Of a stretch of 58,362 bases of DNA, positions 7,352-44,720 are shown one piece after another (within the stretch, counting starts at the first letter, position 1; each line of letters starts with the position of its first letter). The notes under the pieces are model-generated. The model was given only the letters and a program-made list of their open reading frames with translations. It was not told where the DNA came from and did no database searches. The position numbers and the translations under genes were made by a program. The DNA is from Methylocystaceae bacterium (GTDB lineage: Bacteria; Pseudomonadota; Alphaproteobacteria; Rhizobiales; Beijerinckiaceae). The stretch covers positions 30,352 through 88,713 of the forward strand of contig PLAI01000141.1 of NCBI GenBank assembly GCA_003134075.1, read 5' to 3'.

Positions 7352-8284
7352 ATGAATGTCGCGGACCGCGTGGACGATTTTATCCCTCGGCTCGAAAGCG
7401 CCGCAGGGGCGACCGAGACCGCGCTCGACGCGCTGCTGGCGCCGGCGGGGCTCGAAGGCGAGATATCGCGGCCCGCCCGCCTGCTGGAGGCCATGCGCTA
7501 TGCGACGCTGGGCGGCGGCAAGAGGCTGCGGCCCTTTCTGGTCATCGAAGCGGCCCGGCTTTTCGGCGTGACGGGCGACGGCCCGCTTCGAACGGCTTGC
7601 GCGCTGGAGATGATCCATTGCTACTCGCTCGTCCACGACGATCTGCCGGCGATGGACGACGACGATCTGCGGCGAGGACGGCCGACCGCGCATAAGGCTT
7701 TTGACGAAGCCACCGCCATTCTGGCCGGCGACGGACTGCTGACTTACGCCTTCGACGTGCTCGCCGATCCCGCGACGCATGCCGATCCGGCGGTTCGCGC
7801 GGCCCTGGTGCTGGCGCTGGCCCGCGCCGCCGGACTTGGCGGGATGGTTGGCGGGCAAGCGCTGGATCTCGCCGCCGAAACCGCCGGCCGACCCCTGACG
7901 CAGGACGAAATCCTCACCCTTCAGGCGATGAAGACCGGCGCGCTGCTGCGCTTCGCCGTCGACGCCGGCGCCATTTTGGGGAAAGCCGACGCCGCGAAGG
8001 CGCGGGCGCTGTCGCGCTATGGCTCCGCGCTCGGCGCGGCATTTCAGGTCGCCGACGATATACTCGACGCGGCCGGCGACACGGCGGCGCTCGGCAAACG
8101 CGCCGGCAAGGACGCCGAACGCGGCAAGGCGACGCTGGTCGGACTGCTGGGGCTGGACGCCGCCCGCGCCCGCCGCGATTCGCTGGTCGAAGAGGCGATT
8201 GCCGCGCTCGACGAGACGGGATTAGGGGCGGCGACCGGGACGCTGAAGGAGGCGGCGCGCTTCGTCGCCTGGCGCAACAACTGA
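7352..8284 (+). CDS. ispA: Polyprenyl (farnesyl) diphosphate synthase
   Basis: GGKRLRP, HDDLPAMDDDDLRRG (FARM), FQVADDILD (SARM), GKD. Confidence 0.9.
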   Translation: MNVADRVDDFIPRLESAAGATETALDALLAPAGLEGEISRPARLLEAMRYATLGGGKRLRPFLVIEAARLFGVTGDGPLRTACALEMIHCYSLVHDDLPAMDDDDLRRGRPTAHKAFDEATAILAGDGLLTYAFDVLADPATHADPAVRAALVLALARAAGLGGMVGGQALDLAAETAGRPLTQDEILTLQAMKTGALLRFAVDAGAILGKADAAKARALSRYGSALGAAFQVADDILDAAGDTAALGKRAGKDAERGKATLVGLLGLDAARARRDSLVEEAIAALDETGLGAATGTLKEAARFVAWRNN

Positions 8285-31882: not shown

Positions 31883-33442
31883 TTAGCGAATGATGTCGAA
31901 GCTGTAATCGGACTTCGCCACGACGTTGGTGTTGCGGTCGATCTCGTCGAAGATTTTGTCGAGAATCCAAACCAGCACGTTCATGCCGCCCTGATAGCCC
32001 CACACCGGATAGCGGTGATAATGATGGCGATCGAAGATCGGGAAGCCTATGCGGATGAGCGGCGTGCCCGTGTCGCGCTCCAGATATTTGCCGTAAGTGT
32101 TGCCGATCAGGAAATCGACCGGATCGGTGAACAGCAGGGAGCGCATGTGCCACAGATCTTTGCCCGCGTACACATGGCAGTTCTTGCCGAACGGCGAACT
32201 TGCGAGCAGCTTTTCGGTCTTTTCCTGCCAGGCCTTGCCGCCATTGGTGGAGAGAATGGTCGTCGGTTCCGCGCCAAGCTCCAACAGGAAGGAGGTCAAT
32301 CCGAGGCAAAGATCGGGATCGCCATAGATCGCGAATTTTTTGCCGTGGATATGAGCGGCCGAGTCGGCCATGGCGTCGACGAGCCGGCCGCGTTCCTTGG
32401 TCAGCTCCGCAGACACCGGCTTGCCGGAAATGCGCGAGATCGCCATCAGGAATTCGTCGGTGCCCTTCACGCCAATCGGATGGTTGAGCGCGACCGTTTC
32501 TTGGCCGTGCGCGGCGATCACGGGAAGCGTCTTCTCGGTGCAATACTGCTGCATCGAGATCGTCGCCTTGGCGTGGATGGCGTTGGCGGCCTCCTCGAGC
32601 GTGGTGCCGCCGTCATACATGCGGAACTCGCCGTCGGTCGGCGTGTCCCAGACATCGCTGTTGTCGCCGAGGATCGTATATTCGACGCCCATCGAGTTGA
32701 AGATGCGTTTCACTTCGCGCAGATTGCCGACGGTGTAGCCGTCGAAGCCGCCGAGGAAGTTGATCTTCTCGTTCGGCACGCGTTCGAGCTTCGGCGCCGT
32801 GCCGGCCTTGCCATCCCAGAAATGCTCGATCACGCCCTTCATGACATTGTCGTAGCCGGTGATGTGGCTGCCGACGAAGGCGGGCGTGTGGGCGAAGGGA
32901 ACGTCGAATTCCTGGGGAACCGAGCCCTTTTCCTTGGAGGTCTTGATGAAGGCGTTAAGATCGTCGCCGATGACTTCCGCCATGCAGGTCGTGGAAACCG
33001 CGATCATCTTCGGCTTATACATATTATAGGTGTTGGCGAGGCCGTCGATCATATTGTTAAGGCCGCCAAACACCGCCGCGTCTTCGGTCATCGAGGAGGA
33101 GACGCAGGAGGTCGGCTCCTTGAAGTGACGGGAGAAGTGCGAGCGATAATAGGCGACGCAGCCCTGGCTGCCATGCACGAAGGGAATCGTGCTCTCAAAT
33201 CCAACCGCCGCGAAAACCGCGCCGAGCGGTTGGCAAGCCTTCGCCGGATTGACGGTCAGAGCTTCGCGAGCGAAATTCTTTTCGCGATATTCCTCGGTCT
33301 TGGTCCATTCGCGCACCCGCTCAAGTTCGGCGTCGGCGATCGGATTTTCGAAATTCTTCTTCTTGTTCTCGAACATCTCCTTGTATTCCGGCTGGCGGAA
33401 CAGGTTGAAATGGTCGAGGACGTTGTCTGCGTTCTGTGGCAT
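31883..33442 (-). CDS. nifK: Nitrogenase MoFe protein beta chain
   Basis: [41 protein letters not shown]. Confidence 0.98.
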
Positions 33443-33471
33443 GTCGATTCCCCATGTCGGTCCGCGAGCCG

Positions 33472-33493
33472 CCCCGCTCCTGTTGGAGCGGGG
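33472..33493 (-). other. Intercistronic stem-loop between nifD and nifK
   Basis: CCCCGCTCC-tgtt-GGAGCGGGG 9-bp stem. Confidence 0.5.
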
Positions 33494-33508
33494 GTCTTGC
33501 TTATCTAA

Positions 33509-34975
33509 TCAAGCGGCCCAAGGGGCCTTGGTCATTTTCCAGACCGGCGAGTTGATCGCCATGTCCATGTCGCGCGCGAAGATCGCGAAGCCGTCGTAGC
33601 CGTGATAGGGGCCCGAATAATCCCAGCTGTGCATCTGACGGAAAGGAACGCCCATTTTCTGGAAGACGTATTTTTCCTTGATGCCCGAGCCAACGAGATC
33701 GGGCTGGACCTTTTCGACGAACTTCTCGAATTCGTAGCCGGTCACGTCGTCATAGATCAGCGTGCCGTCCTTCACATAGTGAGTCGTGCGCTGATAATCG
33801 TCGTTGTGGCCAAACTCGTAGCCGGTCCCGACGATTTCCATGCCGAGGTCTTCATAGGCGCCGATGACATGGCGCGGACGCAGGCCGCCGACATACAGCA
33901 TGACCGTCTTGCCCTCGAGACGCGGGCGATATTTCGCGATCACCGCGTCGCAGAGCGCTTGATATTTCGCGATGACCTTCTCGGCGTTTTCCTTGATCGT
34001 CTCGTCGAAGTGACTGGCGATCTTGCGCAGCGACTCGGCGATCTTGGAGGGTCCAAAGAAGTTGTACTCGACCCACGGCGTGCCGTATTTTTCTTCCATG
34101 TGCCGCGAGATGTAGTTCATCGAGCGATAGCAGTGAAGAACATTGAGCTTGGCGCGAGGCGTGGCTTCGAGTTCCGCGATCGTGCCGTCGCCCGACCACT
34201 GCGCGACGACGCGCAGGCCCATCTCTTCCAGTAGAATGCGCGAAGACCAGGCGTCGCCGCCGATGTTGTAGTCGCCGATGATCGCGACGTCGTAAGGCGT
34301 TGACTCGAAGCGGGCCGGTTTGCCCTCCATCTTGTCGAACACCCAATCGCGGATCGCGTCATTGGCGATATGATGGCCGAGCGATTGCGACACGCCGCGG
34401 AAGCCTTCGCAGCGCACGGGCACGATCGTCTTGCCCGCATATTCCTTCGTTTTGGCCTTGGACACAGCTTCGATGTCGTCGCCGATGAGGCCGATCGGAC
34501 ATTCGGACTGCACCGAGATGCCCTTGTTCAGAGGGAACAGCACTTCAATTTCGTCGATGATCTTGGCGAGCTTCTTGTCGCCGCCGAACACGATATCCTT
34601 CTCCTGGAAGTCGGAGGTGAACTGCATCGTGCCGAAGGTGTCGACGCCAGTCGTGCCGATGTAATAATTGCGGCGCGAGGCCCAGGAATACTGGCCGCAG
34701 CCCACCGGGCCGTGGCTGATATGGATCATGTCCTTGATCGGACCCCAAACCACGCCCTTCGAGCCCGCATAGGCGCAGCCGCGAATGGTCATGACGCCGG
34801 GAATGGACTTGATGTTGGACTTGACGCCGCAGTCCGGCTTGCCTTCTTCGTACAGGCCAAGATGCTTGGCGCGGCGCTTTGCGGTCTTCTCGGGATAAGT
34901 TTTAAGGACCTCTTGAACGAGTTCCTTGTTTCTCGCCTTGATCTCGGCGACGGTTTCTGCAACTGCCACGCTCAT
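33509..34975 (-). CDS. nifD: Nitrogenase MoFe protein alpha chain
   Basis: [37 protein letters not shown] (Cys275 equivalent), GGLRPRH, QMHSWDY (His442 equivalent). Confidence 0.98.
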
Positions 34976-35008
34976 GTCGATGGCCCTCTAAAACCTTGTT
35001 GTGGACGC

Positions 35009-35034
35009 CGCCCGGTCGCCGAAGCAACCGGGCG
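35009..35034 (-). other. Intercistronic stem-loop between nifH and nifD
   Basis: CGCCCGGT ... ACCGGGCG 8-bp stem. Confidence 0.45.
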
Positions 35035-35050
35035 GAGGGTTGACTTAAAT

Positions 35051-35968
<918 letters not shown>

Positions 35969-36096: not shown

Positions 36097-36113
36097 CGCA
36101 AGGCGCGTGCCAG
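36097..36113 (-). promoter_or_regulatory. sigma54 promoter of nifHDKENX
   Basis: Minus strand CTGGCACGCGCCTTGCG, canonical. Confidence 0.92.
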
Positions 36114-36163: not shown

Positions 36164-36186
36164 TGTCGGCTGTTTCAAAGCCGACA
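36164..36186. promoter_or_regulatory. NifA UAS shared by the divergent promoters
   Basis: TGT-TTCAAAGCCG-ACA (36171-36186) within the inverted repeat TGTCGGC...GCCGACA. Confidence 0.75.
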
Positions 36187-36228: not shown

Positions 36229-36244
36229 GGGCATGGGGTTTGCT
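36229..36244 (+). promoter_or_regulatory. Putative sigma54 promoter for the divergent receiver-domain gene
   Basis: GGGCATGGGGTTTGCT: GG-N10-GC. Confidence 0.55.
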
Positions 36245-36277: not shown

Positions 36278-36673
36278 ATGCAGATTGGCGTCGAGACATC
36301 CACGGCCGTCGACAACAAGCGTATCTTTGTTGTCGACGAAAATGAGATCATGCGCGCGGCGGTTCAGTTCATGCTTCATGACGAAAACGAAACGCATGAA
36401 GCGCCGAGCCTCGAATGGGCTTACGACAAGGCGCGGGATTGGCCTCCGGACCTGATTATTCTGGCCGAGGCGCTGGTGCGCGAACGCGGGACCGGATTGT
36501 TGAAGGAAATCGCCGAGCGTCTTCCGGACACGAAGATTCTGGTCATTGTCGATTCCGCGACGGATGGTTTCGGGAAGCAATGTCTGGCGGACGGCGCCGA
36601 TGGCGTATTGATCAAGCCATTGACCATCGAATTCGTGCGTCGAAAAGTCGACGTGCTGCTCGGTCGCCGTTAA
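36278..36673 (+). CDS. Stand-alone atypical receiver (pseudo-response regulator)
   Basis: IFVVDE, PDLIILAE (Ala at the phospho-Asp position), GADGVLIKP. Confidence 0.82.
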   Translation: MQIGVETSTAVDNKRIFVVDENEIMRAAVQFMLHDENETHEAPSLEWAYDKARDWPPDLIILAEALVRERGTGLLKEIAERLPDTKILVIVDSATDGFGKQCLADGADGVLIKPLTIEFVRRKVDVLLGRR

Positions 36674-36709
36674 AATTTCTTTCGATGGCGCGGGCCGCCA
36701 TCGAACAGC

Positions 36710-36745
36710 AAAAAACCCCGGAGACGCATGCCGCGCATCCGGGGT
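36710..36745 (-). terminator. Rho-independent terminator at the convergent junction
   Basis: ACCCCGGA/TCCGGGGT stem followed by a T-run on the minus strand; a second perfect 10-bp hairpin at 36681-36705. Confidence 0.65.
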
Positions 36746-36768
36746 CCAAAGCTTCCGCTCACTCGCGA

Positions 36769-37101
36769 TCAGGGGGTCGGAACGATGATCAGGCGCTCCA
36801 CCGGATTTCCTTCGACGAAGTGAGATTGTATGATTTCGTCTATGTCTTCTTCCGTGCGCGGCACGTACCAAACGCCTTCGGGGTAGACCACCATGAGCGG
36901 TCCGGCGCGGCAAAAACCAAGGCACCCGGTCGCGGTCACAGAGACATCTGGATTTGGCGTCGCCGTGAGACGTCCTTGCAACCGTTCCCATAGGGGCTTC
37001 GCTCCCGCCCCCATGCAGCTTCCGCGCGGATGCCCGGCGGGCCGCTGCTGAAAGCAAGTGAACACATGATATTTGAACACTACGGGAATATCAGCCAGCA
37101 T
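36769..37101 (-). CDS. Thioredoxin-like [2Fe-2S] ferredoxin
   Basis: HVFTCFQQR..RGSC, TGCLGFC, GPLMVVYPEGVWY. Confidence 0.88.
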   Translation of the reverse strand: MLADIPVVFKYHVFTCFQQRPAGHPRGSCMGAGAKPLWERLQGRLTATPNPDVSVTATGCLGFCRAGPLMVVYPEGVWYVPRTEEDIDEIIQSHFVEGNPVERLIIVPTP

Positions 37102-37126
37102 GTCTTCTCCCTCTCAACGCAGCCGC

Positions 37127-38011
37127 TCAGACTAGCGCCGCTTCGACGTTGGCGCCGGTCAACTCGCCGACAAACTCGGCTAGAGATGCGTCGATCCGGA
37201 CGATATTTTGTTCAGCCAGGAACTTCGTTTCATTCTTGCTGAGCGGTCCCTCGATCACCGCCCAGTGGCGATCGGACGAGCGCTTCATGATCTGGCGCGC
37301 GAAGCCGCGTTCGACTTGAGTCGCGAAGCGACAGCCGAGAAACAGGAAGTTTCGGCCGCGGCGGACCATTTGCACAACTTCGGGGATCGGCGTTTGAATG
37401 TCGATTTCTGTCAGAATCTCGACATAGTCGGAGTCCGACACGATGTAATTCGACGCCGGCGTGATCGATCCGAGCGGCTGATACAGCAGAGTCTTCCACG
37501 CGAGAGTCTCTTGCGGCGCCTCCGCTGGCGCCTTCGCGCCGGTGCTGTCGCGTGTCGTTCTTTTGCCCGGAACGATTGCGCCGTCGGGACGAAAATAATG
37601 TACCCATTCGCCGAAATGCTCGGCTTGGCTGATTCCCTGGGCGAGGCCCCAATCGTCACGTCCGACAAGCGCCTTTTGCGGCAGATCATCGTACCATGCG
37701 TTGACCAGCAGCGGTAATTTGGGTCGCGCCGCGAGCCATTCGTGCAGCGCGCTTGGCCCGGTCGGCGCCGAGAAGGCGTTGTTCATCGCCGCGACGACAG
37801 TCTTTCGATGTTTGAAGTTTTCGATATATTGAGCCGCCGCTGTCAGATTATTGCGAATCTTGTGCGGCACGGTCGCCGTTTTTGTCAGGTAGGAGACAAG
37901 CGCCTCCGGAGACGCCGGCAATTCCGACGACCGCGCGAGCGACAGCACGCCAGGACCAAGATAGGGAATGACCTCGCCACGCTCGAACGCCGCGACTATT
38001 TCTTCGAACAT
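37127..38011 (-). CDS. SIR2-like domain protein, nif-associated, catalytically degenerate
   Basis: VIPYLGPG Rossmann start; NAWYDD for TTNYD; QPLGS for KLHGS; FLFLGCRF. Confidence 0.75.
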   Translation of the reverse strand: MFEEIVAAFERGEVIPYLGPGVLSLARSSELPASPEALVSYLTKTATVPHKIRNNLTAAAQYIENFKHRKTVVAAMNNAFSAPTGPSALHEWLAARPKLPLLVNAWYDDLPQKALVGRDDWGLAQGISQAEHFGEWVHYFRPDGAIVPGKRTTRDSTGAKAPAEAPQETLAWKTLLYQPLGSITPASNYIVSDSDYVEILTEIDIQTPIPEVVQMVRRGRNFLFLGCRFATQVERGFARQIMKRSSDRHWAVIEGPLSKNETKFLAEQNIVRIDASLAEFVGELTGANVEAALV

Positions 38012-38049
38012 CAGTCTCTCCTCGATCCATGGACGACGCCGCGCATGCA

Positions 38050-38265
38050 TTATTGCAGCGCCGCGGCCTTCAAAGCCTCGACTTCCGCCGCGGCGACACG
38101 ATAGACGCCGCGTCCGCCCGACAACGCCTGGAAGTCCATGGCGTGTTTGTCACTCAGCCTGTCGAACCATTGCTGTGCGGTCAGGCTGGCGGGGCGTTCT
38201 CCGATCTCGGTGACGCTGCCGTCCGGCGCGAAGCGGACATGTATGACAGTTGCGTTGCTCGCCAT
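38050..38265 (-). CDS. Small conserved hypothetical protein
   Basis: Operonic ORF with AGGAG RBS; VRFAPDG...W...L...GGRG. Confidence 0.7.
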   Translation of the reverse strand: MASNATVIHVRFAPDGSVTEIGERPASLTAQQWFDRLSDKHAMDFQALSGGRGVYRVAAAEVEALKAAALQ

Positions 38266-38301
38266 CGCTTGCTCCTTTCTATGTGCGGAATTTCCGCGAA
38301 A

Positions 38302-38607
38302 TTAGACGCCAGAACCGAACCCGAGCAGTTCGACCGTGACGTTGTCGTTGCCGAACAAGGTCTGACAGGCGAGACGCGACTTCGAGCCGACGCCGACGAT
38401 CGTATCGAGCTTCTCATTTTCGGCGCGTTGCATTTTCGAAACGCTCTTGCGGCCTTCCTGAACGAAGACGTGGCATTCCCCGCATTTGGCTTCGCCGCCA
38501 CATTTGCTGACGATCTTTTCGCCCGCCGCCAGAATCGCGTCGAGCAGGCGGCTGCCCGGCTCCGCGTCGATCGTTTTTCCAGACGGTAGAATGGTGAGAG
38601 TCGGCAT
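38302..38607 (-). CDS. Adrenodoxin/plant-type [2Fe-2S] ferredoxin
   Basis: KCGGEAKCGECHV ... SRLACQ; AGGAG RBS. Confidence 0.9.
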   Translation of the reverse strand: MPTLTILPSGKTIDAEPGSRLLDAILAAGEKIVSKCGGEAKCGECHVFVQEGRKSVSKMQRAENEKLDTIVGVGSKSRLACQTLFGNDNVTVELLGFGSGV

Positions 38608-38648
38608 GTTTTTTCTCCTGGTTGCCAAAGTGACCGCAAGTCCGTCAC

Positions 38649-38664
38649 TGCAAGTTTCGATCCA
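38649..38664 (-). promoter_or_regulatory. Putative internal sigma54 promoter for fdx-hyp-SIR2-fdx
   Basis: Minus strand TGGATCGAAACTTGCA: GG-N10-GC, perfect -12, one deviation at -24. Confidence 0.5.
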
Positions 38665-38739
38665 TGTGTGATCGTTTGCGCGTCTTTGGACAAGCAAAGC
38701 GCGGAATTGTTCACTCCGCTTGCTTGTCGCCCCGCGGCG

Positions 38740-39891
38740 CTAGAGGTAGATCGCGGCGCCGGCACCGAGATTAATCGACGCGTCCTTCATCGTTCCCACG
38801 ATGAACGCTATTTGATCTTCCGTCAGATGCGCGTGCAGGGGCAAAGCGACCGCGCGTTCGGCGACTTTCTCGGTCACGAAGAGATCGCGTCGCCGATAGC
38901 CGAGATCAAAATAGGCGCGCTGCAAATGCAGTGGCTGCGAATAAGCGCAAGCTCCGATTTTTTCCGTGTACAGGTCGTCGATAATGCTGTCGCGCGTCGA
39001 GCGGCTAAAGCGTGTGCCGAGATGCACGACGTAGAGAAACCAGCAGACCTGATCCACCTCGGGAGCGACATAGGGATCCTTGATGCCCTCGAACGATTGG
39101 ACATATTGATAATACCAGCGCTCCACCCGCTTGCGGCGCGCCAGCAACAATTCGATCCGACGCAGCTGCGCGAGGCCAAGCGCCGCAGCGATGTCGCTCA
39201 TGGAAGCCTGCAAAGGCGGATAGGCGCCGAGCACGACGGATGCGCGCTCCTCGAAGCGATGGCTGCGCAGCCGGCGAATGAGCGAGGCGAGTTCATCATC
39301 ATCGGTGACGATCATCCCCCCTTCGCCGCAAACAAGAGGGCCGGGCTGGGAAAAATCAAAAACAGAGCAGTCGCCAAACCCGCCGACAATCTTGCCCTTA
39401 TATACGGAGCCGATCGCCTCCGTGGAATCCTCGATCAGCATGACGCCGGCTTCCGAGGCCAATTCGCGCAGCGGCTCCCAAGGCGCCGGATGTCCATTCG
39501 TGTTGCCGGCGATGATGGCGCGGGTGCGTTCGGTGATTTTGGCTTTCGCCTTGACTGGATCGAGCGTGCCCGCCCAATAATCTATATCCGCGAAGACGGG
39601 CCGCGCGCCGCAAAGCGTGATGGCGTGCGCGGTTTCCCGGAAGGAATGAGCGGAGGCGATCACCTCGTCCCCCGCTCCAATGCCGCGCGCGCGCAAAGCC
39701 AACAGCAGGCCAATGGTTCCGCTCGCCACGGCGATGGCGTGTTTGCGAGACAAATAGCTCGCGAATTCCGTCTCGAACTGCTCGACCGCCGGACCCGCGG
39801 AAAGGCTCTGCGAATTCAGGATTTCGAGCACGGCTTCGAGATCGCTTTGCAGCAGATCTGGGTCGCTCAGCGGAAGAAATGTTGTTTTCAC
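38740..39891 (-). CDS. DegT/DnrJ/EryC1/StrS-family aminotransferase-like protein lacking the PLP lysine
   Basis: VASGTIGL, PVFADID, IEDSTEAIG, FDFSQPGPLVCGEGG; GTG start with AAGGAG RBS. Confidence 0.85.
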   Translation of the reverse strand: MKTTFLPLSDPDLLQSDLEAVLEILNSQSLSAGPAVEQFETEFASYLSRKHAIAVASGTIGLLLALRARGIGAGDEVIASAHSFRETAHAITLCGARPVFADIDYWAGTLDPVKAKAKITERTRAIIAGNTNGHPAPWEPLRELASEAGVMLIEDSTEAIGSVYKGKIVGGFGDCSVFDFSQPGPLVCGEGGMIVTDDDELASLIRRLRSHRFEERASVVLGAYPPLQASMSDIAAALGLAQLRRIELLLARRKRVERWYYQYVQSFEGIKDPYVAPEVDQVCWFLYVVHLGTRFSRSTRDSIIDDLYTEKIGACAYSQPLHLQRAYFDLGYRRRDLFVTEKVAERAVALPLHAHLTEDQIAFIVGTMKDASINLGAGAAIYL

Positions 39892-40160
39892 GCGCTTGCT
39901 CCTTTCGCCGCGATGATTAGCCCGGTGGCGACCGCCGGATCGGCGGTCACCCGGACACAATGGTCACGCCCGTCGAGCAGATAGAGATCGCAGTGCGCAT
40001 AGCTGCGGAACGGGATTTCATCGGCCATGTCCGAAGCGTCACAGCGGGTCGCCGTGACGCCGGGCTTTAGCCCGCGCAAACTCGCGACCGTCGCGGCGTC
40101 CGCGCGGCTCGTCGCGAGCAGTCGATCGATTTCCTGCAAATGTTCGATCGTAATCGCCAT
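39888..40160 (-). CDS. Small nif-associated hypothetical protein (DUF6129-like)
   Basis: C-terminal part of ORF 39888..40643; CDASDM, LYLLDGRDHC; stop overlaps the degT-like start. Confidence 0.7.
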   Translation of the reverse strand: MAITIEHLQEIDRLLATSRADAATVASLRGLKPGVTATRCDASDMADEIPFRSYAHCDLYLLDGRDHCVRVTADPAVATGLIIAAKGASA

Positions 40161-40162
40161 TG

Positions 40163-40381
40163 TCAGTCGCCACCGCCGCTCAGTCGACGCGCTTCCACGG
40201 TGATGGGCAGCGTGGTTCCCACGATCATTTCCGGCAGTTGCAACACCCAACCGTTGGCCAAGGTCACCGATCCTCCCCAAAGATCCGGATTTTCCTGCGC
40301 GACGATCGGCTCCTCCAGGTCTTTCTTGGGCACATAGGCGGAGAGCACGCCCTCGGAACTTCTGCGGATCATGACTTTCAA
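40163..40381 (-). CDS. nifT: NifT/FixU
   Basis: MKVMIRR..LSAYVPKKDLEE, WGG.VTLANGW, LPITVEA; TTG start inferred. Confidence 0.9.
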   Translation of the reverse strand: MKVMIRRSSEGVLSAYVPKKDLEEPIVAQENPDLWGGSVTLANGWVLQLPEMIVGTTLPITVEARRLSGGGD

Positions 40382-40432: not shown

Positions 40433-40672
40433 TCAGGCCGGCACGATTTCGTCCTCGAGACAACCGATGACGATCTTTTCGGAAAACTCGACGAGATAGA
40501 TGGTCGTCTCGCTTTCGACATGCGCGCCGACCTGCACCACCTCGCCGAGGTCGCCCGCCTTCACGAGCAAGCTCTCTGGTTCGGAATCCGGAAAACTTCC
40601 ATCGTTGAACAGCTCGACGGCCGCGCGAACACGGCGACCCCAATCAAACTTAGGCCGCGCGTCGTCGCTCAT
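40433..40672 (-). CDS. nifZ: NifZ-family protein (copy 2)
   Basis: PKFDWGRRVRA, NDGSFPD, GEVVQVG, GCLEDEI. Confidence 0.85.
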   Translation of the reverse strand: MSDDARPKFDWGRRVRAAVELFNDGSFPDSEPESLLVKAGDLGEVVQVGAHVESETTIYLVEFSEKIVIGCLEDEIVPA

Positions 40673-40965
40673 CCGAATTTTTCCTCCGATGTTTCGACCG
40701 GATCGAGTTCCTTGCTTTTCATGCCGACCCGGTTGCCGGTCGCGGGAAACTCGACGCCATAGATGTAGAACTGTTGCAGGAAGGTGCCGATGTTCACGAC
40801 AAAGCCTTCGTCGCCCTTCTTGCAAAGAATGTCGCCAATGTCCTTTCCCGCGTAAGTCCCGTCATTACGAACGGTTTTGCGGGCGCGAACCTTTTCGCCG
40901 AAAGTGTAAATCGGCGGGTCGTTGAGTTCGACGACGGCGCTGTCGCGACTGATATTCGTTCCCAT
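40669..40965 (-). CDS. nifZ: NifZ-family protein (copy 1)
   Basis: FGEKVRA, RNDGTYAG, GTFLQQFYIYGVEF, VGMKSKEL. Confidence 0.9.
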   Translation of the reverse strand: MGTNISRDSAVVELNDPPIYTFGEKVRARKTVRNDGTYAGKDIGDILCKKGDEGFVVNIGTFLQQFYIYGVEFPATGNRVGMKSKELDPVETSEEKFG

Positions 40966-40967
40966 GG

Positions 40968-41765
40968 TCAGTGCTCCCTTGAGATGACGTTCGAGATATC
41001 GATCGGCCCGGCCCCTCCGCCGTGGGGCCACAGACGTTCCCGCGCGATTTCCTTGACCATCGGGTCCTCGTCTTTCGCGAGCGGCGCTAAATAGGCTGGC
41101 GCCGCCCGGCGCGCGACTTCGTACCGAACGCGCCAGTCGGCGTCGTGGGTGAGGGCGGGAAGCGCGTCCGCCGGCAAGCGCTGCGCCGCCTCGGCGCGAA
41201 TGCTCGCCTCCGGGTCTTCGGTCAAAATGCGCAGCGCGGGCATTGGAATTCGACGCGCCACCGCGCGCCGCACCTCGACGTCGAGATCTCGCACCATCAG
41301 AATGAGAAGATCGACTGATATCCGCCGCGCCACGACTTGCCGGACCGCGTAGTCCGCATCGGAAATCATTGGCCGCAGGTCTGGCGGATCGAGACGTTGC
41401 GCGACCCGAATTCGCACTTCGCGATGCGGGTCGTCGCGCAATTTCAGAAGGTAGCTTTTCGGCAAGCGTCGCGCCGCGCTCCAGCGCACTGCTTCTTCCG
41501 GATCGGAAAGCATCGGCGGCAACAAGAAGACGTCGGCGGCCTTGGCCGCGCACGCGCGCACTTCGAAGTAGGGGTGGCGCAAATAGGATCCGGCGAGGTC
41601 GGGGTTCCAATCGAAGAACCGATCGATGCGACGAGCGTAGCGATCAAACACGCAGGCGCGCAATGGCTGACATTTCTCCGCCTCGCGAAGCGGAAGATGC
41701 GGGCAAGCGCTACAGTCCAAGGGGGCGCCGAGCCAGTCGATCGCCTCGTCGATTTCAGTCGACAT
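40968..41765 (-). CDS. LRV (leucine-rich repeat variant) protein with N-terminal 4-Cys Fe-S domain, copy 1
   Basis: C..C.........C.....C followed by ~24-aa repeats (D...VR..AA.RL). Confidence 0.85.
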   Translation of the reverse strand: MSTEIDEAIDWLGAPLDCSACPHLPLREAEKCQPLRACVFDRYARRIDRFFDWNPDLAGSYLRHPYFEVRACAAKAADVFLLPPMLSDPEEAVRWSAARRLPKSYLLKLRDDPHREVRIRVAQRLDPPDLRPMISDADYAVRQVVARRISVDLLILMVRDLDVEVRRAVARRIPMPALRILTEDPEASIRAEAAQRLPADALPALTHDADWRVRYEVARRAAPAYLAPLAKDEDPMVKEIARERLWPHGGGAGPIDISNVISREH

Positions 41766-42276
41766 CGTCGCGCTCCCGTTGTTCGAGAACCGCGAGAAGG
41801 ATCGCGGCGCCAACCTTGTCGGTGGGGTCGAGTTCGAGCAGCTTGCCGACCGCCGCGCGGCCTTCCTCGATGTCGCCAAGGCGCATATTGAGATAGGCGT
41901 AACCCTTCAGCACGAACATGAAGAAGCGCGCCATCGGAGCGTCGAAGGAGGCGAACGCGGCCTGTCCGGGACGAACGAGACGCCAGTCGAGCGGCAGCGA
42001 ATTGTCGATCGCCGCGCGGAGCAAGCAGGTCCGGGCGACGTCCAGCGCCTCGACCAGTCGGCCCTTGTAAAAGAAAAAGCGGTAGAGGCCGATCAGCACG
42101 GCGACGTGGTTTGGCGCGAGACGGCGGGCCTCGCGCAAATGCGCGAGCGCCGTCTCCGCTTGATCGTAGCTTAGCCCCGCCTGATGGAGCAGGCTTTCAG
42201 CTTCGGGCGGGAGACCGCCCCCGAACACGGAAGCGCCCAGGACGTCCGTCATTTCGTCGATGGCCGCAAGTGTCAT
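41755..42276 (-). CDS. TPR-like helical protein, copy 1
   Basis: Helical-hairpin pattern A..LAP, LELDP; operonic between iscA and the LRV gene. Confidence 0.7.
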   Translation of the reverse strand: MTLAAIDEMTDVLGASVFGGGLPPEAESLLHQAGLSYDQAETALAHLREARRLAPNHVAVLIGLYRFFFYKGRLVEALDVARTCLLRAAIDNSLPLDWRLVRPGQAAFASFDAPMARFFMFVLKGYAYLNMRLGDIEEGRAAVGKLLELDPTDKVGAAILLAVLEQRERDDVD

Positions 42277-44588: not shown

Positions 44589-44604
44589 CGCAACAAGCGT
44601 GCCA
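44589..44604 (-). promoter_or_regulatory. sigma54 promoter of the nifB operon
   Basis: Minus strand TGGCACGCTTGTTGCG, canonical. Confidence 0.92.
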
Positions 44605-44663: not shown

Positions 44664-44720
44664 TGTTGGCATGCCGACAACGAACATAGGGGCACGCTTT
44701 CGTTTGTCGCCAACTCGACA
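44664..44720. promoter_or_regulatory. Two NifA UAS
   Basis: TGT-TGGCATGCCG-ACA (44664-44679) and TGT-CGCCAACTCG-ACA (44705-44720). Confidence 0.85.

What the first reader, a model, noticed from the sequence alone, without database searches (positions are those of the whole stretch)
36278..39891. Three independent pseudo-enzymes clustered within 3.6 kb of the nif cluster
SEEN: the receiver (D to A), SIR2 (N to W, H to L) and DegT-like (K to G) proteins all have intact reading frames, RBSs or operonic coupling, and sigma54 context, but each lost its key catalytic residue. They are interleaved with two ferredoxins and small unknown proteins. INFERENCE: intact ORFs with targeted active-site loss suggest a co-evolved non-catalytic signalling or assembly complex rather than pseudogenisation.
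Basis: inference. Interest (0 to 1): 0.7.

Follow-up and report, generated by a model that had tools for sequence, protein, structure and literature searches.

The report
Three catalytically degenerate nif-accessory proteins
Next to the nitrogenase genes of this Methylocystis genome sit three intact, strongly conserved genes whose products have enzyme or signalling folds but lack the usual key residues. They are probably repurposed helper proteins of nitrogen fixation, not one proven complex, and one of them is widely mislabelled as a deacetylase.

Summary
The stand-alone receiver (36278-36673, +) has Ala63 at the phospho-acceptor position. The SIR2_2 protein (37127-38011, -) has Trp106 and Leu180 where ThsA-type sirtuins have the catalytic Asn and His. 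The DegT-fold protein (38740-39891, -) has Gly184 at the Schiff-base Lys and Asp179 at the PLP-phosphate Ser.

These are family-wide states, not local lesions. Counts were Trp in 101/101 SIR2-like orthologues, no Lys in 70 DegT-like, and no Asp in 28 receivers. Pairwise dN/dS was 0.04-0.19, so pseudogenisation is excluded.

All three are nif-linked and sit in sigma54/NifA context. The SIR2-like and DegT-like genes lie in the nifB operon. The receiver is divergent from nifH and shares its NifA site.

Their distribution is nested rather than joint. In 401 Pseudomonadota genomes I found nifH in 48, SIR2-like in 25, DegT-like in 6 and the receiver in 4. The SIR2-like gene occurs alone in rhizobia, Rhodopseudomonas and Acidobacteriota, so an obligate three-part complex is not supported.

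The SIR2-like gene is already known as Msi351, ZMO1821 and Rcc03262. The papers I found call it or treat it as a deacetylase, or name only its family. The Msi351 mutant is Fix+.

Function remains inferred: non-canonical binding or scaffold roles, with neo-catalysis not excluded.

The parts
36098..36112 (-). nifH sigma54 -24/-12 promoter (TGGCACGCGCCTTGC)
36171..36186 (.). NifA-type UAS TGT-N10-ACA lying between the divergent nifH and receiver promoters
   Evidence: A TGT-N10-ACA is found upstream of the receiver in 21 of 28 orthologous loci.
36229..36244 (+). sigma54-like GG-N10-GC element (GGGCATGGGGTTTGCT), 49 nt ahead of the receiver ATG
   Evidence: An equivalent element lies at -48 to -58 in 16 of 28 orthologous loci.
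36278..36673 (+). Stand-alone Asp-less receiver, 131 aa. Ala63 (36464-36466) is at the phospho-acceptor position. It carries the family motif QFMLHDENETHE.
36769..37101 (-). Thioredoxin-like [2Fe-2S] ferredoxin (Clostridium/Azotobacter 2Fe-2S ferredoxin type); last gene of the minus-strand operon
37127..38011 (-). SIR2_2-fold protein, 294 aa (an alternative ATG at 38050 overlaps the orf71 stop). Trp106 (37694-37696) replaces the catalytic Asn and Leu180 (37472-37474) replaces the catalytic His.
38050..38265 (-). orf71, a conserved small protein with no Pfam match (motif HVRF..G.V..I...P.....Q.WF)
38302..38607 (-). Fer2-type [2Fe-2S] ferredoxin, about 101 aa from the internal ATG
38740..39891 (-). 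DegT/DnrJ/EryC1-fold protein, 383 aa, GTG start. Gly184 (39340-39342) is at the Schiff-base Lys position and Asp179 (39355-39357) at the PLP-phosphate Ser position. The conserved C-terminal tail KDASIN.GAGAAIY is modelled at low confidence.
39888..40160 (-). orfX, a 90-aa conserved protein with no Pfam match. It is translationally coupled to DegT-like (GTGA overlap) and has a conserved HC motif.
   Evidence: same arrangement in Paraburkholderia and Methylococcus
40163..40372 (-). nifT/fixU. Its stop lies 2 nt ahead of the orfX ATG.
44590..44604 (-). nifB sigma54 promoter, with UAS copies at 44664-44679 and 44705-44720. It is the presumed start of the operon nifB-fdxN-hesB-TPR-LRV-nifZ-nifZ-nifT-orfX-DegT-Fdx-orf71-SIR2-Fdx.

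Best explanation
The three genes are members of three old, separate subfamilies of nif-accessory proteins. Each subfamily keeps its parent fold (CheY-like receiver, SIR2 Rossmann domain, fold-type-I sugar aminotransferase). Each lost the parent's canonical catalytic or phospho-acceptor residues long ago. All are kept by purifying selection and expressed with nitrogenase from NifA/sigma54 promoters.

Shown: the residue states, their family-wide fixation, the selection, the nif linkage and the nested distribution.

Inferred mechanism:
1. The SIR2-like protein cannot act as an NAD-dependent deacylase or NADase by the known mechanism. It is the widespread core element, typically the gene after nifT. 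It most likely acts as a ligand- or protein-binding factor in nitrogenase maturation or stability.
2. The DegT-like protein, with its coupled partner orfX and the following [2Fe-2S] ferredoxin, is an optional add-on inserted between nifT and the SIR2-like gene. It cannot form an internal aldimine, and its PLP-phosphate Ser is an invariant Asp. It most likely binds a ligand or partner rather than transaminating. Its invariant but low-confidence C-terminal tail looks like a docking motif.
3. The receiver is induced together with nifH from a shared NifA site. It must work without phosphorylation, most likely as a small protein-protein regulator giving feedback on a kinase, NifA or sigma54.

The three work in the same process. 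They are not an obligate three-part complex.
For: - Domains and residue calls.
- Family-wide states: Trp in 101/101 SIR2-like. The His position is L/I/F/W/M/V in 91 and His in 10. The DegT Lys position is G37/S26/L4/A3 of 70, with FDFSQ near-invariant. The receiver Asp position is A10/G10/S8 of 28.
- dN/dS is 0.04-0.19.
- Intact folds: SIR2-like pLDDT 89.4, with ThsA/DSR2 as best matches at TM about 0.6. DegT-like pLDDT 92, TM 0.90-0.94 to GDP-perosamine synthase, with the tail at pLDDT 38-65.
- nif linkage across Alpha-, Beta- and Gammaproteobacteria, Acidobacteriota and others.
- Nested phyletic pattern: nifH 48 > SIR2-like 25 (23 of them nifH+) > DegT-like 6 > receiver 4.
- Promoters.
- Translational coupling.
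- NifA-dependent or N2-induced protein levels of orthologues: PMC6925177, PMC8600466, PMC8594446.
- K-to-A mutants of perosamine synthase, ArnB and WbpE are deposited with PLP or sugar ligand bound (entry titles). A Lys-less DegT fold can therefore still bind ligand.
Against: - No direct evidence for any binding partner or ligand.
- Each family has many new invariant polar residues that could form new active sites. In SIR2-like these include K51, H68, R69, D193, D195, E198 and H249. In DegT-like they include D179, Q182, C188, K271 and K369.
- A Lys-less DegT next to a [2Fe-2S] ferredoxin recalls the PMP-dependent E1 dehydrase.
- The rhizobial and Methylocystis 'clade B' SIR2-like proteins keep the His.
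- The M. loti msi351 mutant is Fix+ (PMC3538637), so the role is subtle, conditional or redundant.
- The closest relative's DegT-like gene carries a frameshift, which may be an assembly error.
Confidence: 0.6

Rival explanations
1. One reading: the receiver, SIR2-like and DegT-like proteins form one co-evolved, non-catalytic signalling or assembly complex.
For: - The receiver and DegT-like genes were found only in genomes that also have the SIR2-like gene, in the 401-genome sample.
- Among 34 SIR2-like loci with nifH in range, the receiver co-occurs with DegT-like in 16 of 17, against 4 of 17 without the receiver (Fisher P 6e-5, not corrected for phylogeny).
- Pairwise distance matrices correlate at r 0.74-0.84.
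- All three are under NifA/sigma54 control.
Against: - The SIR2-like gene occurs without either partner in most lineages: 11 of the 17 genomes with a strong SIR2-like match in the sample, plus the rhizobial nifZ-nifT-SIR2 operons, Rhodopseudomonas and Acidobacteriota.
- In P. atlantica DegT-like is kept while an IS5 sits where the SIR2-like gene should be.
- Locus L040 has the receiver and SIR2-like but no DegT-like.
- The distance correlation is expected from co-inheritance of one gene cluster.
- No interaction data exist and none could be computed here.
Confidence: 0.15
2. They are still enzymes with relocated or different catalytic residues. For example, the DegT-like protein could be a PMP-dependent, E1/ColD-like enzyme fed by the adjacent [2Fe-2S] ferredoxin. 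The SIR2-like protein could use new invariant His, Asp or Lys residues.
For: - Conservation is very high, with new invariant polar motifs.
- DegT-like keeps the pyridine-N Asp (EDS) and mostly keeps the GT phosphate loop.
- A ferredoxin gene directly follows DegT-like in many loci.
- Known Lys-less members of the DegT family (ColD, E1) are active. This rests on established knowledge; PDB hits are.
Against: - The Lys position is variable (G/S/L/A), so nothing functional sits there. There is no His as in ColD/E1, whereas a His-type paralogue exists elsewhere in the same genome.
- The phosphate-binding Ser is an invariant Asp.
- Only one near-invariant Cys is present, so there is no E1-type cluster site.
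- The family is closest to aminotransferases (E 3e-61) rather than dehydratases (E about 1e-28).
- The SIR2-like protein lacks both residues whose mutation inactivates ThsA/DSR2-type enzymes. This rests on established knowledge; H171A and other mutant entries appear.
Confidence: 0.22
3. The assumption made in several papers: the nif SIR2 protein is a lysine deacetylase that regulates nitrogenase or NifA post-translationally.
For: - It is annotated 'SIR2 family NAD-dependent protein deacylase'.
- It is induced with nitrogenase in Z. mobilis, where Nif proteins are acetylated (PMC8600466).
Against: - There is no match to the sirtuin family PF02146; only SIR2_2 matches.
- The catalytic Asn is Trp in 101/101, and the His is absent in 91/101.
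- The protein has a single Cys, so no Zn-ribbon (read from the sequence).
- Its nearest structures are the defence-type NADase SIR2 domains, not CobB.
Confidence: 0.04
4. The genes are pseudogenes or relics drifting under relaxed selection.
For: - One possible frameshift in the DegT-like gene of the nearest relative.
- IS-mediated loss of the SIR2-like gene in symbiotic Paraburkholderia.
- The msi351 mutant is Fix+ (PMC3538637).
Against: - dN/dS is 0.04-0.19 in every pair tested.
- The reading frames are intact in about 100 loci across phyla.
- The models are confident.
Confidence: 0.02

Closest known systems
Msi351 (Mesorhizobium loti R7A), ZMO1821 (Zymomonas mobilis) and Rcc03262 (Rhodobacter capsulatus): nif-cluster 'SIR2 family / sirtuin-like' proteins
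   Same: They occupy the same kind of nif-cluster position. Msi351 is the last gene of nifB-fdxN-nifZ-fixU-msi351, Rcc03262 is listed next to NifT, and ZMO1821 lies between nifA and nifHDK. Their levels are NifA-dependent or induced under N2. For the rhizobial type, the R. tropici orthologue shows Trp at the Asn position (PMC3538637, PMC6925177, PMC8600466).
   Different: The window's protein is of the His-less subtype (Leu180), whereas the rhizobial type keeps His. Here four genes (orfX, DegT-like, ferredoxin, orf71) separate it from nifT. None of the papers I found mentions the missing catalytic residues.
ThsA, DSR2 and KomC defence SIR2 NADases (PDB 8BTO, 7UXT, 8WYB, 8ZSF)
   Same: They are the best structural and profile matches. 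They share the SIR2_2 Rossmann core, the glycine-rich loop and the .YD and .G(S/D) motif frames.
   Different: The catalytic Asn and His are replaced. There is no sensor or effector partner domain, no PADLOC model match and no defence-island context.
GDP-perosamine synthase and ArnB (DegT/DnrJ/EryC1/StrS sugar aminotransferases)
   Same: The fold is almost superimposable: TM 0.90-0.94, rmsd 1.8 A, 36% identity. The pyridine-N Asp is conserved.
   Different: The Schiff-base Lys is Gly, the phosphate Ser is Asp, and there is an extra conserved C-terminal tail. The gene sits in a nif operon rather than a polysaccharide or antibiotic sugar cluster. Natural relatives score 486 bits or more against the nif-type profile, whereas ordinary DegT enzymes score 244 bits or less.
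ColD and E1 (CDP-6-deoxy-L-threo-D-glycero-4-hexulose-3-dehydrase): Lys-less PMP-dependent members of the DegT family
   Same: They lack the Lys. E1 works with [2Fe-2S] electron transfer, and here a [2Fe-2S] ferredoxin gene follows DegT-like.
   Different: Those enzymes have His at the Lys position, and E1 binds its own cluster. Here the position is G/S/L/A and only one Cys is conserved. Similarity to ColD/E1 is much weaker than to aminotransferases.
Aspartate-less or phosphorylation-independent single-domain receivers, such as Caulobacter FixT, a single-domain receiver that feeds back on the FixL kinase
   Same: It is a stand-alone receiver fold in a microoxic or nitrogen-fixation regulon, and it is expected to act by protein-protein contact. 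FixT: PMC7078487, abstract only. The rest rests on my own knowledge.
   Different: It has no Fe-S Cys motif (one Cys only), a different conserved signature (MQIGVE..., QFMLHDENETHE), and a fixed position divergent from nifH. No partner is known.

Membership tests
Response-regulator receiver (PF00072, CheY-like) | Profile and fold match | tested here: met
   E 4.5e-12, 46.6 bits against a cut-off of 30.2; aligns end to end with RR468 and CheY
Response-regulator receiver (PF00072, CheY-like) | Phospho-acceptor Asp at the end of beta3 | tested here: not met
   Ala63 in the window; A/G/S in 28 of 28 orthologues
Response-regulator receiver (PF00072, CheY-like) | Acidic pair after beta1, Thr/Ser of beta4 and Lys of beta5 | tested here: inconclusive
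   The window has DE, Ser and Lys-Pro. Across orthologues the acidic pair varies (DD, DE, EH, AN...), the Ser position is not conserved, and the Lys is mostly kept, with Arg in two.
Sirtuin / CobB NAD-dependent deacylase (PF02146) | Match to the sirtuin profile | tested here: not met
   Only PF13289 SIR2_2 matches; no NCBIfam match
Sirtuin / CobB NAD-dependent deacylase (PF02146) | Catalytic His (general base) and Asn | tested here: not met
   Leu180 and Trp106; family-wide
Sirtuin / CobB NAD-dependent deacylase (PF02146) | Cys4 zinc-binding module | tested here: not met
   The 294-aa sequence contains a single Cys (translation)
Defence SIR2_2 NADases (ThsA, DSR2, SIR2-HerA type) | SIR2_2 fold | tested here: met
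   PF13289 E 7.5e-18; Foldseek E 6e-11, TM about 0.6
Defence SIR2_2 NADases (ThsA, DSR2, SIR2-HerA type) | Catalytic Asn and His | tested here: not met
Defence SIR2_2 NADases (ThsA, DSR2, SIR2-HerA type) | Defence-system model match or partner domain and context | tested here: not met
   No PADLOC match; a stand-alone protein in the nifB operon
DegT/DnrJ/EryC1/StrS sugar aminotransferase | Profile and fold match | tested here: met
   E 7.7e-95; TM 0.90-0.94 to 3BN1/3DR4
DegT/DnrJ/EryC1/StrS sugar aminotransferase | Schiff-base Lys | tested here: not met
   Gly184; 0 Lys in 70 orthologues. Two paralogues in the same genome have Lys.
DegT/DnrJ/EryC1/StrS sugar aminotransferase | PLP-binding residues: pyridine-N Asp and phosphate Ser | tested here: inconclusive
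   The Asp of EDS is invariant, but the Ser is an invariant Asp179. Cofactor binding itself cannot be tested here.
PMP-dependent dehydratases (ColD / E1) | His replacing the Lys; Cys ligands for [2Fe-2S] in E1 | tested here: not met
   G/S/L/A at the position; one near-invariant Cys
nif-associated SIR2-like family (Msi351 / ZMO1821 / Rcc03262 type) | Located in a nif operon downstream of nifZ/nifT | tested here: met
nif-associated SIR2-like family (Msi351 / ZMO1821 / Rcc03262 type) | Family signature: Trp at the Asn position and SD.DYVEVLTEIDIQTPIP | tested here: met
   101/101 Trp; invariant columns
nif-associated SIR2-like family (Msi351 / ZMO1821 / Rcc03262 type) | NifA-dependent expression | not testable with these tools
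   Promoter motifs only. Orthologue data are in PMC6925177 and PMC8600466.

The most novel reading that the evidence does not exclude
The cassette nifT-orfX-DegT-like-[2Fe-2S]-orf71-SIR2-like, together with the nifH-divergent Asp-less receiver, is an unrecognised checkpoint module for nitrogenase maturation or regulation. It would be built from three repurposed enzyme folds. The degenerate SIR2 and DegT pockets would sense small molecules (NAD(H) or ADP-ribose-like, and PLP/PMP or amino-sugar-like), and the receiver would relay the state to NifA, sigma54 or a kinase. On this reading the three proteins do act together in the lineages that have all of them.
Probability: 0.12. Interest if true: 0.8.

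Novelty: new variant of a known kind. Interest (0 to 1): 0.55.

Why it matters
Lists of nif genes are used to engineer nitrogen fixation and to predict diazotrophy, and these conserved accessory genes are ignored or mis-annotated.

The SIR2-like gene is annotated as a deacylase. Three papers build a deacetylation or regulatory hypothesis on it. The residue data argue that this cannot work by the known mechanism.

The DegT-like and receiver families have, as far as I could find, never been discussed. They mark a distinct type of nif cluster found in methanotrophs, Rhodocyclales-type Betaproteobacteria, some free-living Paraburkholderia and large (6-9 Mb) Rhizobiales genomes.

Three different pseudoenzyme-like folds recruited into one metalloenzyme pathway would be a good system for studying how dead enzymes are reused.

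The Fix+ phenotype of the M. loti mutant limits expectations. The role may be conditional, for example on O2, metal limitation or free-living growth.

Tried and rejected
- A single-sequence PDB search with the SIR2-like protein found nothing. I replaced it with a profile search and a fold search.
- The search for related loci with the 25-sequence alignment failed because no conserved stretch was available. It worked with 8 closer sequences.
- PADLOC gave no match for any of the three proteins, so I rejected a defence reading.
- Pfam at E up to 1 gave nothing for orfX or orf71.
- An apparent internal stop in the Methylocapsa DegT-like gene was an artefact of my start-codon choice.
- An outlier dN/dS of 1.96 for Fdx2 in the pair L030-L032 is most probably an ORF-extraction artefact. 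I did not follow it up and did not use it.
- Mirror-tree correlation is uninformative for physical interaction, because all the genes are co-inherited in one cluster.
- Model coordinates are not exposed. I therefore could not test whether another Lys (K271, K369) or the C-terminal tail reaches the DegT pocket, or what lines the SIR2 pocket.
- Literature searches for DegT plus nif and for a receiver upstream of nifH found no relevant description.

Full report
**What is there.** Names attached to the closest homologues place the window in a Methylocystis genome. It holds a large nif region. nifHDK lie on the minus strand at 31883-35944.

Upstream of them, also on the minus strand, is a long operon that starts at a sigma54 promoter ahead of nifB (44590-44604, with two TGT-N10-ACA sites). 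The gene order is:
- nifB, fdxN, a HesB/IscA-like gene, a TPR-like gene and an LRV-FeS gene;
- two nifZ copies, then nifT (40163-40372);
- a 90-aa ORF I call orfX (39888-40160);
- the DegT-like gene (38740-39891);
- a Fer2-type [2Fe-2S] ferredoxin (38302-38607) and orf71 (38050-38265);
- the SIR2-like gene (37127-38011);
- a thioredoxin-like [2Fe-2S] ferredoxin (36769-37101).

The nifT stop lies 2 nt before the orfX ATG. The orfX TGA overlaps the DegT-like GTG as GTGA.

The receiver (36278-36673) is on the plus strand, divergent from nifH. A GG-N10-GC element sits 49 nt ahead of its ATG. One TGT-N10-ACA lies between it and the nifH promoter.

- Pfam assigns Response_reg, SIR2_2 and DegT_DnrJ_EryC1.
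- Against RR468 and CheY, the receiver has Ala63 where the phospho-acceptor Asp should be.
- Against GDP-perosamine synthase, 'FDFSQPG' aligns with 'FSFFGNK'. The Schiff-base Lys is therefore Gly184. The Ser five residues upstream, which in this family contacts the PLP phosphate (established knowledge), is Asp179.
- For the SIR2-like protein a single-sequence PDB search failed.
- A profile that includes distant relatives aligns its 'NAWYDD' and 'QPLGS' with TTNYD and K(L/M)HGD of ThsA.
- An AlphaFold model (pLDDT 89.4, pTM 0.90) is most similar to the SIR2 domains of ThsA, DSR2 and KomC.
- The DegT-like model (pLDDT 92) superimposes on GDP-perosamine synthase at TM 0.90-0.94 and rmsd 1.8 A.
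- As an internal control, the three other DegT paralogues of the same genome carry Lys, Lys and His at the position, and all keep the Ser.

**These are family traits, not local lesions.** I collected the region from 19 further genomes of the genus and from 80 genomes found with the SIR2-like protein.
- The Asn position of the SIR2-like protein is Trp in 101 of 101.
- The His position is Leu, Ile, Phe, Trp, Met or Val in 91.
- It is His only in 10 Methylocystis 'clade B' copies. These resemble the rhizobial type, which also keeps His (R. tropici).
- A more distant subfamily keeps the Asn but again lacks the His ('DINRD ... KPLGT'). It occurs mostly in nifH-positive genomes.
- The DegT-like Lys position is Gly, Ser, Leu or Ala in 70 of 70, with FDFSQ nearly invariant.
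- The receiver's Asp position is Ala, Gly or Ser in 28 of 28.
- Nei-Gojobori dN/dS for pairs with unsaturated dS is 0.04-0.19 for all three genes. That is only slightly above the flanking ferredoxins, which are mostly 0.02-0.12.
- Each family has its own new invariant signatures: 'IENFKHRK' and 'SDSDYVEVLTEIDIQTPIP' in SIR2-like, 'QFMLHDENETHE' in the receiver, and a C-terminal 'KDASIN.GAGAAIY' tail in DegT-like.
- That tail is modelled at low confidence in the monomer, as expected for a docking motif.

Pseudogenisation is therefore excluded.

**Are they one co-evolved unit?** I searched the same 401 Pseudomonadota genomes four times.

| Query | Genomes with a match | Notes |
|---|---|---|
| nifH | 48 | |
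| SIR2-like | 25 | 23 of them nifH-positive |
| nif-type DegT-like | 6 | 486 bits or more; ordinary DegT enzymes 244 or less; all six SIR2-like-positive |
| Receiver | 4 | all four DegT-like-positive |

- Among 73 SIR2-like loci with enough upstream sequence, 51 have DegT-like next to it.
- Among 34 loci with nifH in range, 17 have the receiver. Of those 17, 16 also have DegT-like, against 4 of the 17 without the receiver (not corrected for phylogeny).
- The pattern is therefore nested. The SIR2-like gene is the widespread core. In rhizobia, Rhodopseudomonas and Acidobacteriota it is the only one of the three present.
- DegT-like travels with orfX as an insert between nifT and the SIR2-like gene.
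- The receiver is tied to nifH in the clusters that also carry DegT-like.
- Exceptions exist. In P. atlantica DegT-like is kept while an IS5 occupies the SIR2-like position. One locus has the receiver and SIR2-like without DegT-like.

This fits three accessory functions of one pathway with partial dependence. It does not fit an obligate three-part complex. Physical interaction could not be tested.

**What is already known.**
- The SIR2-like gene has been noticed as Msi351 of M. loti ('prokaryotic sirtuin-like family', last gene of nifB-fdxN-nifZ-fixU-msi351). The insertion mutant is Fix+ (PMC3538637).
- It is Rcc03262 of R. capsulatus, whose protein was not found in a nifA double mutant (PMC6925177).
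- It is ZMO1821 of Z. mobilis, induced under N2 and taken as a probable deacetylase (PMC8600466, PMC8594446).
- It also appears as 'sir2' or a SIR2-2 protein in two 2026 papers.
- None of these papers mentions the missing catalytic residues.
- An earlier report of this scan on another genome reached the same view of the SIR2-like protein.
- I found nothing on the DegT-like gene or the receiver.
- The window's genome, 90% complete, has no match to the classical sirtuin family PF02146.

**Mechanism.** What is shown: intact folds, loss of canonical residues, selection, nif linkage and sigma54/NifA context. The -24/-12 element and a UAS are conserved ahead of the receiver in 16 and 21 of 28 loci.

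What is inferred:
- The SIR2-like protein cannot cleave NAD by the known route. It most likely binds a ligand or a protein in nitrogenase maturation or stability, close to NifT.
- The DegT-like protein cannot form an internal aldimine and probably does not hold the PLP phosphate in the usual way. With orfX and the ferredoxin it forms a sub-module. K-to-A mutants of relatives are deposited with ligand bound, so a binding role is plausible.
- The receiver must act without phosphorylation, probably as a NifA-induced feedback element.

The main rival is neo-catalysis. The E1 dehydrase is a Lys-less family member that works with [2Fe-2S] centres. However, the variable residue at the Lys position, the absence of His and the single conserved Cys argue against an E1-like mechanism.

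**Verdict.** Function remains open.

Noticed in passing
L013 (G014:C1), about 7876-7877 in locus coordinates: The DegT-like gene of the closest sequenced relative is split by a one-base frameshift near '...GTRFTRS|RDAIIDD...'. Its SIR2-like gene and receiver are intact. This could be a real inactivation or an assembly indel.
   Followed up: partly
window 39888-40160 (-) and 38050-38265 (-): Two small ORFs without any Pfam match are conserved across phyla. orfX was found in 76 of 100 loci, has a conserved 'HC' motif and is translationally coupled to DegT-like. orf71 was found in 46 of 100 loci and has the motif HVRF..G.V..I...P.....Q.WF...L.GGR..FR.
   Followed up: partly
L015 (G020:C1) and L016 (G008:C5); L030 and L032: Two Methylocystis genomes carry both SIR2-like subtypes. 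The His-less copy sits with the receiver and ferredoxin but without nifH or DegT-like; in G020 the receiver lies next to pheT. The His-keeping copy sits upstream of nifZ and DegT-like at a second locus.
   Followed up: partly
L117-L119 (G041, G157, G117): A distant SIR2_2 subfamily keeps the Asn but lacks the His ('VVDINRDTQL ... LFKP(L/M)GTP'). It occurs in small (2-3 Mb) genomes, 6 of 8 of which are nifH-positive. In G041 it lies about 11 kb from nifHD-nifT.
   Followed up: partly
L115 (P. atlantica pBC201) and H29/H25 (P. sprentiae plasmid): In symbiotic Paraburkholderia plasmids the SIR2-like gene is replaced by an IS5 element or truncated to about 30%, while nifT-orfX-DegT-like stays annotated as intact. 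The free-living P. aromaticivorans keeps DegT-like, SIR2-like and a 2Fe-2S ferredoxin.
   Followed up: partly
window 37409-37424, 37883-37898, 40028-40043: Three further TGT-N10-ACA matches lie inside the SIR2-like gene and orfX. The window has 10 matches against about 3 expected by chance. Whether these are internal NifA sites is unknown.
   Followed up: no
whole genome G000: No match to the classical sirtuin family PF02146 in this 90%-complete assembly. One of the genome's other DegT paralogues (C247) has His at the Lys position, so it is a ColD/E1-type dehydratase candidate.
   Followed up: partly
window 40669-41610 and 40968-41879 (-): The long mechanical ORFs here overlap. The real genes appear to be an LRV-FeS protein and two short NifZ copies, with the NifZ domains at the C-terminal ends of ORFs 40669-41610 and 40433-40825.
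   Followed up: no
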